64,000 bases of DNA from assembly GCA_045123255.1 (NCBI GenBank), contig JBGVIN010000010.1, forward strand, positions 3,044 to 67,043. Direction: 5' to 3'. The translations under genes were made by a program, and so were the position numbers. Source of the stretch: Eubacteriales bacterium. GTDB lineage: Bacteria > Bacillota > Clostridia > Oscillospirales > CAG-272. Every line of letters starts with the position of its first letter. The first letter of the stretch is position 1. The notes beneath the pieces were generated by a model, which saw only the letters and a program-made list of their open reading frames with translations, did not search any database and had not been told where the DNA came from. Below are positions 1 to 63,150 of the stretch, in pieces.

Positions 1-266
1 CTTTTTCCTTTGAGATATCCCATAAACCCCGAAACGCTCATTTTGGGCGGGATGCTCACTAGCATATGTATATGGTCGGGACACACTTCTCCCTCTACTA
101 TATCCACACCTTTCCATTGGCATAATTTTCGCATTATCTCTCTTATTTCTAACCGTTTTTCTGCGAAAAACACTTTCCTCCTGTATTTTGGAGCGAACAC
201 GATATGATACTTGCAATTCCATTTCGTATGTGCTAAACTATTTGTGTCTATGGCGTCTTTTTTCAT
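1..266 (-). CDS. tnpA: IS200/IS605-family Y1 (HUH) transposase TnpA, N-terminal 88 codons; remainder lies beyond the window edge
   Basis: Absent from the ORF track because it runs off the window. Manual minus-strand translation from the ATG at 264-266: MKKDAIDTNSLAHTKWNCKYHIVFAPKYRRKVFFAEKRLEIREIMRKLCQWKGVDIVEGEVCPDHIHMLVSIPPKMSVSGFMGYLKGK. The KYHIVFAPKYRR block and the HUH motif (DHIHML) are diagnostic of IS200-type TnpA. GGAGG lies 8 nt upstream of the ATG. Confidence 0.9.
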   Translation of the reverse strand, partial: MKKDAIDTNSLAHTKWNCKYHIVFAPKYRRKVFFAEKRLEIREIMRKLCQWKGVDIVEGEVCPDHIHMLVSIPPKMSVSGFMGYLKGK

Positions 267-13392: not shown

Positions 13393-13403
13393 TTGACTAC
13401 ATA

Positions 13404-13435
13404 TAGCGTGATACTCCGTTAAGAGTATCACGCTA
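13404..13435 (+). other. 13-bp perfect hairpin directly after the stop codon (no T-run)
   Basis: TAGCGTGATACTC-CGTTAA-GAGTATCACGCTA. Confidence 0.5.
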
Positions 13436-13437
13436 AA

Positions 13438-13590
13438 CTATGATTGCCCTTGCGGGCAAGTTATGAGTTATGATATGCTTCGCATAGTTATGATTGGGCA
13501 ACGCCCAAGTTACAGATTAGATAGGCAATCATATCATAACATTTGCGCAGCAAATTCATAACGGCGAGCATAGCGAGCCTCATAACTCTA
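13438..13590. repeat. hairpin array built on the word GTTATGA (left half) and its complement TCATAAC (right half)
   Basis: GTTATGA at 13460, 13467 and 13487. TCATAAC at 13534, 13556 and 13580. Interleaved with palindromes ttgcccttgcgggcaa, tatgcttcgcata, ttgggcaacgcccaa and atttgcgcagcaaat. Confidence 0.75.
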
Positions 13591-13609
13591 AACTAAAACC
13601 GACAGAAAA

Positions 13610-13660
13610 AGAGCAGACACATAAGGTCTTATACCTTGAGTGTTTGCTCTTGTTTTTCTT
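13610..13660 (+). terminator. rho-independent terminator about 220 nt downstream of the 12910-13392 gene
   Basis: Long hairpin AGAGCAGACAC...GTGTTTGCTCT followed by TGTTTTTCTTT. Places the GTTATGA array inside a probable 3' UTR. Confidence 0.55.
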
Positions 13661-13664
13661 TATG

Positions 13665-13745
13665 TCGATATGTGGGCTTTGCCCACTCGATATGTTATCG
13701 CTTTGCTCGAACTCGATATATTGTCGCTACGCGCTAATTCGATAT
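13665..13745 (+). repeat. hairpin array built on the word TCGATAT
   Basis: TCGATAT at 13665, 13687, 13713 and 13739 (periods 22, 26, 26), separated by GC-rich quasi-palindromes. The first, gtgggctttgcccac, is perfect. Confidence 0.65.
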
Positions 13746-13808
13746 GAGATAAATCCCGCATTGGCGGTGGATAAGGTGTAGTCGTCCGTTGTAAAATAAC
13801 ATTATCTT

Positions 13809-14016
13809 GTAGGGGCGACCATTGGTCGTCCGCATTGTTGGGTGCGTTCCAATTGAAACGGGGCGTTGAGGACGTCGCTATTCGAGACAGAGACGCCGTC
13901 CCCTAAGAATAATCAACGCGCAGCGTTGTATATCATCAATGCAACGCGTTGTATATCATCACGGCGTGCCGTGTATATCACCACGCATTTGCGTGCATAT
14001 CATCAACCGTAGGTTG
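13809..14016 (+). repeat. GTAG hairpin plus CATATCAT/palindrome array (partial composite copy)
   Basis: GTAGGGGCGACCATTGGTCGTCCGC (13809-13833). Then caacgcgcagcgttg TATATCAT caatgcaacgcgttg TATATCAT cacggcgtgccgtg TATATCAC cacgcatttgcgtg CATATCAT caaccgtaggttg (13914-14016). Confidence 0.8.
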
Positions 14017-14107
14017 CATTGGTCTTTTCCAGCGTTGCTGGGTGCGTGCCTGTTCCCCTCATCCACCATAAATGGTTCCCCTCCCATCATAGGGGATGGC
14101 TCATTTC

Positions 14108-14262
14108 CCGTCATTCCGAGCGTAGCCGAGGAATCCCCGCAGACGGGCGATTCGTGAATCGCCCCTACGGTATAATCAACGCCTCGGCGTTGTATATCAT
14201 CACGGTTTACCGTGTATATCATCAACCCGCAGGATTGTATATCACCACGCTTTCGTGCATTT
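14108..14262 (+). repeat. composite hairpin-array element, copy E2
   Basis: CATTCCGAGCGTAGCCGAGGAATCCCCGCAGACGGGCGATTCGTGAATCGCCCCTACGGTATAAT. Then caacgcctcggcgttg TATATCAT cacggtttaccgtg TATATCAT caacccgcaggattg TATATCAC cacgctttcgtg. Confidence 0.8.
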
Positions 14263-14265
14263 TTT

Positions 14266-14440
14266 GCGGACAACCAATGGTTGCCCCTACGGTGAATTTT
14301 GTTTTGTTTGTAGGGGAGGATATTATCCTCCCATTTCGTTCGGTGCGTACCGTTTGTGCGGGAGGCAGATTGCCTCCCCTACAATGCACCCATCGTTTTC
14401 TCTGTCATTCCGAGCGTAGCCGAGGAATCCCCGCGGATTG
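14266..14440. repeat. GTAG hairpins: single unit (14266-14290, minus), inverted doublet (14310-14382) and a CATTCCGAGC module (14405-14435)
   Basis: GCGGACAACCAATGGTTGCCCCTAC. GTAGGGGAGGATATTATCCTCCC ... GGAGGCAGATTGCCTCCCCTAC. TCATTCCGAGCGTAGCCGAGGAATCCCC. Confidence 0.8.
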
Positions 14441-36535: not shown

Positions 36536-36736
36536 CCTATCATTCCGAGCGTAGCCGAGAAATCTACGTTTACGGGCGATTCGTGAATCGCCCCTACGGT
36601 ACAATCAACGCCTTGGCGTTGCATATCATCAACCGTAGGTTGCATATCATCAATTCCAACGGAATTGCATATCATCACCACAGGTGTATATCATCAATCC
36701 ACAGGATTGCATATAATCACCGCAGGTGCATATCAG
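36536..36736 (+). repeat. composite hairpin-array element, copy E3
   Basis: CATTCCGAGCGTAGCCGAGAAATC...ACGGGCGATTCGTGAATCGCCCCTACGGTACAAT, followed by six hairpins. They are caacgccttggcgttg (36606-36621), caaccgtaggttg (36630-36642), caattccaacggaattg (36651-36667), caccacaggtg (36676-36686), caatccacaggattg (36695-36709) and caccgcaggtg (36718-36728). Each is separated by CATATCAT, TATATCAT or CATATAAT. Confidence 0.85.
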
Positions 36737-63009: not shown

Positions 63010-63150
63010 ACAATCTTTGATTGATGCCATTCAAGCCAAGGCTTGATTCCATTCCGCGCAAGCACGGATTCCATACACGCTTCGCGTGATTGCATACAAC
63101 CTGCGGTTGATTTTATGCCTTCCCTAGCAGGGAAGGTGGCACGAAGTGAC
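63010..63150 (+). repeat. hairpin array built on the word ATT(C/G)CAT plus a CCTTCCC-n5-GGGAAGG / GACGGATGAG module
   Basis: tcaagccaaggcttga TTCCATT ccgcgcaagcacgg ATTCCAT a cacgcttcgcgtg ATTGCAT a caacctgcggttg ATTTTAT gccttccctagcagggaaggtggcacgaagtgacggatgag. Confidence 0.7.

What the first reader, a model, noticed from the sequence alone, without database searches (positions are those of the whole stretch)
13438..13752. The same word-plus-palindrome grammar appears with different words (GTTATGA/TCATAAC, TCGATAT), probably inside a 3' UTR
Between the stop of the 12910-13392 gene and the first T-run terminator (13610-13660) lies an array. Its left half uses the word GTTATGA (13460, 13467, 13487). 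Its right half uses the reverse complement TCATAAC (13534, 13556, 13580). Each word adjoins a short perfect palindrome: ttgcccttgcgggcaa, tatgcttcgcata, ttgggcaacgcccaa or atttgcgcagcaaat. These are two head-to-head sub-arrays.

A second array just after the terminator uses TCGATAT four times (13665, 13687, 13713, 13739; periods 22, 26, 26).

A fourth word, ATT(C/G)CAT, is used at 63047-63116.

Several unrelated words share one architecture. This argues for a common generating mechanism, such as serial insertion of tiny hairpin elements next to a fixed target word, rather than simple tandem duplication. Serial insertion is what IS200/IS605-derived elements, which insert 3' of a specific tetra- or pentanucleotide, would produce.
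Basis: partly seen in the sequence, partly recalled or inferred. Interest (0 to 1): 0.6.

Follow-up and report, generated by a model that had tools for sequence, protein, structure and literature searches.

The report
Hybrid hairpin-array mobile element after a gene
The "word plus palindrome" arrays are real, but they were not built on the spot: they are one copy of a small gene-less mobile element, common in this group of uncultured gut Clostridia, that usually sits in the hairpins that end genes and whose 7-letter words match particular subfamilies of a small protein of unknown function.

Summary
Observation confirmed: GTTATGA x3, TCATAAC x3 and TCGATAT x4 sit at the stated places beside short hairpins, far beyond chance.

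Window 13404-13662 is one copy of a roughly 250-nt module: end hairpin, GTTATGA arm, conserved centre, TCATAAC arm, then a two-way terminator-like hairpin. This module recurs at 81-89% identity, with the same order of units, in at least 14 of 49 other genomes of the genus (up to about 20 matching places per genome). Full copies (350-410 nt) have about 20-nt terminal inverted repeats. They lie between the two halves of host terminator hairpins. One clean empty/filled pair shows insertion into a terminator loop.

Window 13600-13790 is a partial, inverted copy of a sister element that uses TCGATAT. The two are joined at the shared palindromic terminator hairpin. The sister species has a plain 30-nt terminator at this site.

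Across 21 copies the hairpins keep pairing through changes on both sides. Loops read G..A on the TCATAAC strand.

Words follow clades of the PF05635 four-helix-bundle protein. A GTTATGA-clade gene exists in this genome (contig C42). No TCGATAT-clade gene does.

I found no support for serial insertion by IS200/IS605. No RNA data could be obtained, and the mobilising enzyme is unknown.

The parts
13404..13435 (+). End hairpin of the element, holding the left terminal inverted repeat: 13-bp perfect stem TAGCGTGATACTC / GAGTATCACGCTA, loop CGTTAA
   Evidence: inverted repeat I4. The same hairpin begins 20 of 20 fetched copies in the genus. The loop here is flipped relative to TTAACG in 16 of 21 copies. 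It is the only copy in this genome.
13437..13508 (+). Left arm: ACTATGA, GTTATGA x3, and hairpins at 13444-13459, 13474-13486 and 13494-13508. Loops are TTGC, TTC and AAC, which read GCAA, GAA and GTT on the minus strand.
13509..13533 (+). Conserved centre, gttacagattagataggcaatcata. This is the position that a PF05635 gene occupies in one TCGATAT-word relative (G042, L124).
   Evidence: Centre conserved across copies and genera. Gene-bearing relatives.
13534..13586 (+). Right arm: TCATAAC x3, perfect hairpin at 13541-13555 (loop GCA), and a conserved imperfect unit at 13563-13579
13587..13605 (+). Conserved spacer, tctaaactaaaaccgacag
   Evidence: Present in all 21 aligned copies
13606..13662 (.). 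Long terminator-like hairpin flanked by an A-run and a T-run, so it reads as a terminator in both directions. It is shared by the two half-elements.
   Evidence: I1; fold. Homologous module in GTTATGA-type copies and in TCGATAT-type copies. Not listed by the simple terminator scan.
13665..13745 (+). TCGATAT arm (arm A of the sister element, here in inverted orientation): 4 words and 3 units. The same three units recur in the same order in G022 (same genus); G186 and G057 (other genera) share the block with units 2-3 in recognisable, partly diverged form and a different first hairpin.
13746..13790 (+). Remnant of the sister element's centre (gagataaatccc...) and a possible degenerate end. The second arm and the end hairpin are missing.
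   Evidence: Comparison with G022 loci L147/L148. Homology with the sister species G014 resumes at about 13790. Assignment is tentative.

Best explanation
Window 13404 to about 13790 is a gene-less, MITE-like mobile DNA element. More precisely, it is a hybrid of two sister elements joined at a shared palindromic, two-way terminator-like hairpin.

Each half is built as: end hairpin (terminal inverted repeat), then a mirror-image pair of arrays of tiny hairpins separated by a fixed 7-nt word, then the terminator hairpin. The arrays are inherited as whole blocks. Their hairpins then drift by paired (compensatory) changes.

Full-length copies sit in the loops of host terminator hairpins and bring their own terminator (shown). 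The 7-nt word is most likely the recognition tag of a cognate small four-helix-bundle protein of Pfam family PF05635 (23S-rRNA-intervening-sequence protein, Avd-like). I infer that the protein docks on the array with the hairpins extruded or single-stranded, reading the strand that carries TCATAAC and C-GNA-G / GNRA loops (about 0.55).

GTTATGA matches the PF05635 gene on contig C42 of this genome. TCGATAT matches a protein clade that this genome lacks, so that half is an orphan remnant. What cuts and joins the DNA is unknown.
For: Element identity:
- Query positions 9-256 (window 13404-13651) match at 81-89% in at least 14 of 49 other genomes of the genus. Some part of the 405-nt query matches in 45 of 50 genomes, counting this one, with up to about 20 matching places per genome.
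- Twenty fetched copies show the same unit order and the same centre.
- The TCGATAT block recurs in 15 of 151 family genomes with 0 control hits. It lies inside a 365-376-nt element that is 97% identical within G186 and 88% identical between genera.

Insertion:
- The G014 copy L190 lies exactly in the loop of the hairpin AAGCACCGA-ttgc-TCGGTGCTT. That hairpin is intact in this genome at C67, and TTG stands on both sides of the insert.
- Nine of 20 copies are bracketed by copy-specific inverted repeats of 8-20 nt, mostly with an A-run and a T-run.
- The ends are inverted repeats, about 15 of 20 positions alike (read by eye).

This locus: the sister species (neighbouring gene 98% identical) has a 30-nt terminator in place of 13406 to about 13790.

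Structure:
- 97.2% of pair cells are paired.
- Seven pairs change on both sides. 0 of 500 shuffles reach this, and slid controls give at most 2.
- Loops read G..A versus T..C at 99:1 in the TCATAAC-type orientation. The count is approximate, because two pairs of overlapping word families are tallied separately.

Protein link:
- All 4 PF05635 genes of this genome abut an array. The one on C42 uses TCATAAC/GTTATGA.
- 37 of 54 PF05635 genes examined have an array within 450 nt.
- Words cluster on the protein tree: 20 changes against 35.1 when shuffled, 0 of 200 shuffles as low. The GTTATGA clade has support 100/99 and the TCGATAT clade 100/94.
- Arrays and the cognate clade co-occur across genomes, with Fisher p = 8e-6, 7e-4 and 0.02. 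In G158 and G119 every array hit lies on a contig other than the gene's.
Against: - No binding or transcription data.
- Array and gene belong to one cassette, so the match between word and clade could reflect shared descent only.
- Seven of 14 genus genomes with the GTTATGA element, and 11 of 14 other family genomes with TCGATAT arrays, lack the cognate clade. G004 and G009 have many copies but only a broken gene.
- One protein clade of 10 genes has no arrays.
- No transposase or recombinase was found in 8 loci that carry the end hairpin.
- At this locus the flanks show no terminator halves, so the event was a replacement, not a clean insertion.
- The hybrid history and the degenerate right end are read by eye.
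Confidence: 0.7

Rival explanations
1. One reading: each tiny hairpin is a separate insertion placed 3' of a fixed target word by an IS200/IS605 or RAYT (Y1) transposase, so the arrays grew in place.
For: - The genome has 6 Y1_Tnp matches, one of them at the very start of the window.
- Single-strand transposases do use hairpins together with short target words (established knowledge of IS608 and REP/RAYT).
- GTAGGGG-headed REP-like hairpins flank two RAYT-like genes.
Against: - Units recur only as ordered blocks. The same five hairpin positions, the same centre and the same flanks appear in 21 copies.
- Array length differs between copies by loss or gain of whole units.
- The observed target is the loop of a terminator hairpin.
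- Words track PF05635 clades.
- The REPs beside the RAYT-like genes carry GTAG, not these words.
- The two IS200-like genes are single, diverged copies.
Confidence: 0.03
2. The arrays act as RNA. They would be a Gut-1-type structured RNA or 3' UTR module, transcribed from the upstream gene and ended by the element's terminator. The RNA would stabilise the message or soak up an RNA-binding protein, possibly the PF05635 protein.
For: - The Rfam Gut-1 model (RF01706) matches 45 arrays in this genome, 3 of them above its cut-off.
- GNRA loops are stable in RNA.
- The array lies between a stop codon and a hairpin followed by a T-run.
- In C42 and C40 the array reaches to within 24 nt or less of the PF05635 start codon, so it is probably in that gene's leader.
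Against: - This locus gives no Gut-1 match even at E <= 1.
- The mirror-image arms give each strand one 'good' arm, as expected for a DNA site with two-fold symmetry.
- Stems are almost purely Watson-Crick. G-T pairs are rare outside one unit.
- Arrays occur in all classes of intergenic gap.
- In C106 the array lies upstream of the promoter-like site.
- Triloops closed C-GNA-G are the classic hyperstable DNA mini-hairpin (established knowledge).
Confidence: 0.2
3. A selfish or host-tamed REP/BIME-like repeat with no dedicated protein partner. On this view the PF05635 gene is just cargo that travels in some copies, and the words are kept by copying, not by recognition.
For: - Many genomes keep arrays without the cognate gene.
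- Some of the cognate genes are broken.
- Arrays lie mostly outside open reading frames (64 of 72), as REPs do.
Against: - Within an array the 7-nt word stays identical while neighbouring stems differ completely, so something must read the word.
- Words differ between arrays in step with protein clades.
- Arrays without a gene co-occur with the cognate gene located elsewhere in the same genome.
Confidence: 0.12

Closest known systems
Gut-1 RNA motif (Rfam RF01706; Weinberg et al. 2010, PMC2864571)
   Same: Tandem small hairpins with variable stems joined by a conserved linker, known only from gut metagenomes. The model matches 45 arrays in this genome, 3 above its cut-off.
   Different: This locus gives no match even at E <= 1, because its words (GTTATGA, TCGATAT) lie outside the model. 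Gut-1 was proposed as a free-standing non-coding RNA. Here the arrays are cargo of a mobile DNA element, with mirror-image arms and a protein family that varies with them.
Bacterial MITEs (for example Correia, RUP, ERIC)
   Same: Small (250-410 nt), gene-less, terminal inverted repeats, many dispersed copies, presence/absence differences between close species.
   Different: No parent insertion sequence or transposase was found. The target is the loop of terminator hairpins. The interior is a swappable two-armed hairpin array, and the element carries its own two-way terminator.
REP / BIME elements with RAYT (Y1) transposases
   Same: Dispersed hairpin repeats lying mostly outside open reading frames and arranged in mosaics. 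Each has a short fixed tag beside a palindrome.
   Different: In REPs the palindrome is conserved and the tag is GTAG. Here the stems vary and the words differ from array to array. True GTAG-headed REP-like units with RAYT-like genes exist separately in this genome.
DGR target hairpin/cruciform with the Avd accessory protein (Guo et al. 2011, PMC3240598; PF05635 resembles Avd, PMC10053308)
   Same: A DNA hairpin whose stem sequence is free but must pair, with a strand-specific 5'-GRNA loop. It occurs in a system that includes a four-helix-bundle protein of the same superfamily.
   Different: There is no reverse transcriptase in this genome and no template or variable repeats. Here there are arrays of many hairpins with a word between them. 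It has not been shown that Avd reads the DGR hairpin.
ORF-bearing intervening sequences of 23S rRNA (Leptospira, Coxiella)
   Same: A small PF05635 gene lodged at the tip of a stable hairpin and flanked by inverted repeats.
   Different: The host hairpins here are transcription terminators, not rRNA helices. Most copies, including this one, have no gene.

Membership tests
Gut-1 RNA (RF01706) | Match to the Rfam covariance model at or above 50 bits | tested here: not met
   No match at this locus at E <= 1 or at the gathering score. Three other arrays of this genome pass.
Gut-1 RNA (RF01706) | Expressed as a discrete RNA | not testable with these tools
MITE | Short, gene-less, many dispersed copies | tested here: met
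   About 250-410 nt with no ORF. Some part of the query matches in 45 of 50 genus genomes, up to about 20 places per genome.
MITE | Terminal inverted repeats | tested here: met
   Left end GCGTGATACTCTTAACGGAG against right end CTCCGCTAAGAACATCACCC, about 15 of 20 positions alike, in full-length copies (read by eye). In the window the right end is degenerate.
MITE | Target-site duplication | tested here: inconclusive
   TTG stands on both sides in the one clean empty/filled pair. It cannot be judged in the other copies.
MITE | Parent element with a transposase that shares the ends | tested here: not met
   Eight loci with the end hairpin hold only gene-less elements. No plasmid or phage match.
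IS200/IS605-derived or RAYT/REP repeats | Repeat unit is a conserved hairpin with a fixed 4-5-nt tag that matches a resident Y1 transposase; units insert singly | tested here: not met
   Stems vary and units move as blocks. RAYT-like genes are flanked by GTAGGGG hairpins instead. The ends of the IS200-like copies could not be delimited.
Hairpin-array cassettes paired with PF05635 (a working class of this scan, not a published family) | The word of the array matches the clade of a PF05635 protein | tested here: met
   GTTATGA clade 100/99 and TCGATAT clade 100/94. 20 label changes against 35.1 when shuffled, 0 of 200 shuffles as low.
Hairpin-array cassettes paired with PF05635 (a working class of this scan, not a published family) | Physical binding of the protein to the array | not testable with these tools
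   Needs a bench assay.
Diversity-generating retroelement | Reverse transcriptase with template and variable repeats | tested here: not met
   No RVT_1 match in the genome.

The most novel reading that the evidence does not exclude
PF05635 (23S-rRNA-intervening-sequence / Avd-like) four-helix-bundle proteins would be sequence-tag-specific readers of arrays of extruded DNA mini-hairpins. Together with those arrays they would form a so-far undescribed class of mobile cassette that homes to the tips of stable hairpins (terminators here, rRNA helices in the classic intervening sequences) without a canonical transposase. The many word 'dialects' would be separate specificity groups. Gene-less copies such as this one would be mobilised in trans by the resident protein of the same dialect.
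Probability: 0.3. Interest if true: 0.85.

Novelty: new variant of a known kind. Interest (0 to 1): 0.6.

Why it matters
- It gives a concrete, testable partner and context to two orphans: the Gut-1 RNA motif and the very widespread PF05635 'four helix bundle' proteins, relatives of the DGR protein Avd.
- It shows a small mobile element that lands inside transcription terminators yet carries its own two-way terminator. That may explain how it can be tolerated just after genes.
- For annotation, these arrays should not be read as CRISPR-like arrays, as iterons, or as the neighbouring gene's own terminator or 3' UTR signals.
- This locus adds two word dialects that the Rfam model misses.
- It also shows that half-elements can recombine at the palindromic terminator hairpin.

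Tried and rejected
- Rfam scans of the locus and the window: only RNase P and a weak FourU match, and no Gut-1 here.
- Exact-protein look-up of the upstream gene gave one 1.9-kb contig that breaks inside the end hairpin.
- IS200/IS605 target sites: the two tnpA copies share only 165 nt at 74% identity, so their ends could not be delimited.
- Search for an autonomous parent element around 8 solo end hairpins: none found.
- Reverse transcriptase in the genome: none.
- Plasmid and phage collections: no match.
- Literature: no paper links PF05635 to hairpin arrays. PF05635 genes had been noted inside cas loci (PMC3936711).
- G-T versus A-C mismatch asymmetry as a test of RNA versus DNA: too few mismatches to decide, and the 12 'CA' cases came from the word flanks.
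- Simple tandem duplication: rejected, because neighbouring units have unrelated stems.
- Chance: rejected.
- The 7-bp match GACTACA/TGTAGTC flanking the window copy: about one such hit is expected by chance, so I ignored it.

Full report
**1. The observation**

- GTTATGA lies at 13460, 13467 and 13487, with a degenerate ACTATGA at 13437.
- TCATAAC lies at 13534, 13556 and 13580.
- TCGATAT lies at 13665, 13687, 13713 and 13739.
- Perfect palindromes lie at 13444-13459, 13474-13486, 13494-13508 and 13541-13555.

The unit at 13563-13579 is a direct repeat of GCGAGC, not a palindrome. In the TCGATAT array only the first spacer is a perfect palindrome.

The clustering is far beyond chance. Six of the window's 13 GTTATGA/TCATAAC sites lie within 127 nt, and four TCGATAT within 81 nt. 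Poisson estimates give about 1e-11 and 1e-7. Genome-wide, a blind search for chains of at least 3 hairpins whose linkers share a 6-mer found 72 arrays, against 3 in shuffled sequence. Of the 72, 64 lie outside open reading frames in a genome that is about 87% coding. The array at 63047-63116 is also real.

**2. The organism**

The genome is a 2.0-Mb assembly of 125 contigs (GC 42.5%) from an uncultured Clostridia lineage. Its nearest named records are metagenome-assembled genomes from deer, goat and sheep gut.

**3. The left half is a copy of a dispersed element**

I searched window 13396-13800 against 50 genomes of the genus, counting this one.
- Some part of the query matches in 45 of the 50, with up to about 20 matching places per genome.
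- The best matches cover query positions 9-256 (window 13404-13651) at 81-89% identity, in at least 14 of the 49 other genomes.

Twenty fetched copies all read in the same order:
1. End hairpin TAGCGTGATACTC...GAGTATCACGCTA.
2. aactatga and hairpin 1.
3. GTTATGA GTTATGA and hairpin 2.
4. GTTATGA and hairpin 3.
5. A conserved centre ending ggcaatcata.
6. TCATAAC and hairpin 4.
7. TCATAAC and the imperfect unit ggYgagc..gcgagcc.
8. TCATAAC, tctaaact..., and a long hairpin between an A-run and a T-run.

So the units that look unrelated inside one array are fixed positions of one inherited block. This contradicts growth in place by serial insertion.

Gene-less GTTATGA/TCATAAC arrays with two arms and a related centre also occur in other genera.

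**4. Full-length copies sit in terminator loops**

Nine of the 20 copies are bracketed, 190-480 nt apart, by copy-specific inverted repeats of 8-20 nt, mostly with an A-run outside the left one and a T-run outside the right one. These are the two halves of a host terminator.

Those full-length copies end in inverted repeats. GCGTGATACTCTTAACGGAG stands at one end and CTCCGCTAAGAACATCACCC at the other, about 15 of 20 positions alike (read by eye).

One pair is clean. This genome has AAGCACCGA-ttgc-TCGGTGCTT followed by a T-rich tail on contig C67. The sister species G014 has 190 nt of element inside that loop, with TTG on both sides.

Two other G014/G000 pairs show replacement of a terminator rather than a clean insertion.

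**5. The right half is a piece of a sister element**

TCGATAT arrays occur in 15 of 151 genomes of the family, with 0 control hits.
- My three units recur in the same order in G022 (same genus).
- G186 and G057, from two other genera, share the block. Units 2-3 are recognisable but partly diverged, and the first hairpin is different.
- In G186 and G057 the block is present in many copies, often at contig ends.
- Unit 2 (gttctcgctttgctcgaac) and unit 3 keep the same internal mismatches, so these are conserved features rather than decay.

The block lies in a 365-376-nt element. That element is 97% identical within G186 and 88% identical between genera. It has the same kind of end hairpin, two arms, the same terminator-like hairpin and a further tail.

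In the window only the terminator hairpin, arm A and a stub of the centre (gagataaatccc) remain. They are inverted relative to the GTTATGA half. The stem of the terminator hairpin matches the GTTATGA-type copies. Its right tail (ttgtttttctttatg TCGATAT) matches the TCGATAT type.

The simplest reading is two half-elements joined at this near-palindrome. The same junction occurs in G021, G197 and G195, so the hybrid itself has spread. My copy has two extra pairing-weakening substitutions compared with G022.

**6. This site in the sister species**

G014 has the neighbouring gene at 98% amino-acid identity. After "...taattgactacatat" it reads aaaaaacacgcgagaaatcgcgtgtttttt, a plain terminator. It rejoins the window at about 13790.
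- The whole 380-nt composite, 'first terminator' included, is therefore lineage-specific.
- The window's flanks show no halves of that terminator. I call the event a replacement.
- The same comparison shows the ATATCATCA array at 13912-14016 with 5 units against 3.
- The block 14100-14440 is absent from G014.

**7. Structure is maintained**

I counted pairs on the alignment of 21 copies.
- 97.2% of pair cells are standard pairs.
- Seven pairs show changes on both sides. For example, one pair reads UA 9, GC 7 and AU 5.
- 0 of 500 shuffles reach the observed values.
- Slid controls give at most 2 such pairs.

The copies are related, so the cell counts overstate the number of events.

Loops are strongly one-sided. 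In the orientation where the word reads TCATAAC, ATATCAC or CAATTCA, loops that begin with G and end with A outnumber T..C loops 99 to 1. This count is approximate, because two pairs of overlapping word families are tallied separately. Most are C-GNA-G triloops or GNRA. At this locus they are GCAA, GAA and GTT on the minus strand for the left arm, and GCA and ATA on the plus strand for the right arm.

The two arms are thus related by a two-fold axis, as in DNA sites or transposon ends. Stems are almost purely Watson-Crick. As single-stranded DNA the region folds with z = -8.4.

**8. The protein link**

This genome has four PF05635 genes, one of them broken. Each lies within a few hundred nt of a two-armed array.
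- C40 uses GTGATAT.
- C106 and C47 use ATATCATCA.
- C42 uses TCATAAC/GTTATGA, the word of my locus.

Of 54 family members examined in the family sample, 37 have an array within 450 nt.

On the protein tree the words cluster, with 20 changes against 35.1 when shuffled and 0 of 200 shuffles as low.
- The GTTATGA clade has support 100/99.
- The TCGATAT clade has support 100/94.

In G042 the TCGATAT-clade gene sits exactly between the two arms.

Across genomes, arrays and the cognate clade go together.

| Comparison | With arrays or element | Without | Fisher p |
|---|---|---|---|
| GTTATGA arrays vs GTTATGA-clade gene, family | 4 of 7 | 1 of 143 | 8e-6 |
| TCGATAT arrays vs TCGATAT-clade gene, family | 3 of 14 | 0 of 136 | 7e-4 |
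| GTTATGA element vs similar gene (59% identity or more), genus | 7 of 14 | 5 of 35 | 0.02 |

In G158 and G119 all array hits are on contigs other than the gene's, so this is not mere adjacency.

The link is imperfect.
- Many genomes keep arrays without the gene.
- G004 and G009 have many copies and only a broken gene.
- One clade of 10 genes has no arrays.

This genome has no TCGATAT-clade gene, the best match being 52% identical.

The C42 protein matches PDB 2RLD at E 6e-27. PF05635 resembles the DGR protein Avd (PMC10053308). There is no reverse transcriptase here.

**9. How it most likely works**

Shown:
- The locus is a block-inherited copy of a mobile, terminally repeated, gene-less element.
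- Relatives of this element lie in terminator loops.
- The hairpins are kept by paired changes.
- Words track protein clades.

Inferred:
- The invariant 7-nt word between freely varying stems must be read by something sequence-specific.
- The only factor seen to vary with it is the PF05635 protein.
- I therefore propose that this protein docks on the array, with the hairpins folded out of the duplex or on single-stranded DNA, and reads the word and the G..A loop on one strand (about 0.55).
- The element's own two-way terminator would replace the function of the host terminator it splits. That would explain why it is tolerated directly after genes.

A precedent for the grammar exists. DGR targets need a DNA hairpin whose stem sequence is free and whose loop must read 5'-GRNA on one strand (PMC3240598). 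No one has shown that Avd reads that hairpin.

What cuts and joins the DNA is unknown.

**10. Comparison with known things**

- Gut-1 (RF01706) is the nearest catalogued item. It matches 45 arrays here, 3 above its cut-off, but not this locus.
- The element meets the structural marks of a MITE, but I found no parent transposase.
- True GTAG-headed REP-like hairpins with RAYT-like genes exist in this genome as a separate system. Several of them share this intergenic region.
- I found no paper that links PF05635 to such arrays.

Earlier notes of this scan on other genomes reached the same picture: terminator-loop insertion and the PF05635 link. I treated them as leads and re-derived the points here.

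**11. Verdict**

- The thing is a new variant of known kinds (MITE-like repeat, Gut-1-type array), with an unpublished protein association and an unusual target.
- This locus adds two dialects missed by Rfam, an orphan half, and a hybrid junction.

Noticed in passing
window 13811-13833, 14145-14168, 14266-14290, 14310-14332, 14361-14382; genome-wide: GTAGGGG-headed REP-like hairpins occur at least 39 times in the genome, in about five discrete stem classes. They flank two weak Y1-transposase (RAYT-like) matches at C9:180-476 and C2:9750-9974. This repeat system is separate from the word-plus-hairpin arrays, although one such hairpin often heads an ATATCATCA array (CCCCTACGGTATAATCAACGC...).
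   Followed up: partly
window 14110-14140 and 14405-14435: A 31-nt stretch, gtcattccgagcgtagccgaggaatccccgc, occurs twice inside a block (14100-14440) that is absent from the sister species G014.
   Followed up: no
window 13912-14016, 14170-14250, 36574-36735: ATATCATCA-word hairpin arrays lie on both sides of the 7020-aa gene (14760-35822, minus strand). The 13912-14016 array has 5 units here and 3 in G014.
   Followed up: partly
window 13417-13422: The loop of the end hairpin reads CGTTAA here but TTAACG in 16 of 21 copies. The hairpin is flipped relative to the rest of the element, or it came from the inverted sister element.
   Followed up: partly
G000 C106:34255 onward (locus L003): The PF05635 gene on C106 is followed, with overlapping stop and start codons, by an ORF beginning MKIISWNCNGKFREKF. 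I did not identify it.
   Followed up: no
G000 C47:19445-19726; G004:C7:93618-93965; G009:C11:29229-29579: PF05635 genes with an in-frame stop codon. The two in G004 and G009 are the GTTATGA-type genes of genomes that carry many gene-less GTTATGA elements.
   Followed up: partly
L146 (G186:C56:25608-25688): One unit of the TCGATAT block is a half-swapped hairpin, gcgggcgaagttgac: one arm of one stem type and the other arm of another. It looks like an exchange at the loop between two hairpins.
   Followed up: no
window 1-224 (G000 C10:2911-3267, minus strand): An IS200-like tnpA gene (137 bits to Y1_Tnp) runs off the start of the window. Its only close relative in the genome, on C104, shares just 165 nt at 74% identity.
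   Followed up: partly
protein tree (loci L072-L078, L119-L122): A well-supported clade of 10 PF05635 genes has no hairpin array within 450 nt, so not all members of the family are array-linked.
   Followed up: no
G000 C73:15916-16001 compared with L179 (G014:C32): The long terminator-like hairpin module (aaaagagcaagaat...cttgctc) exists on its own in this genome at a site where G014 has the full GTTATGA element next to it. It may be a separate module or a preferred landing place.
   Followed up: no
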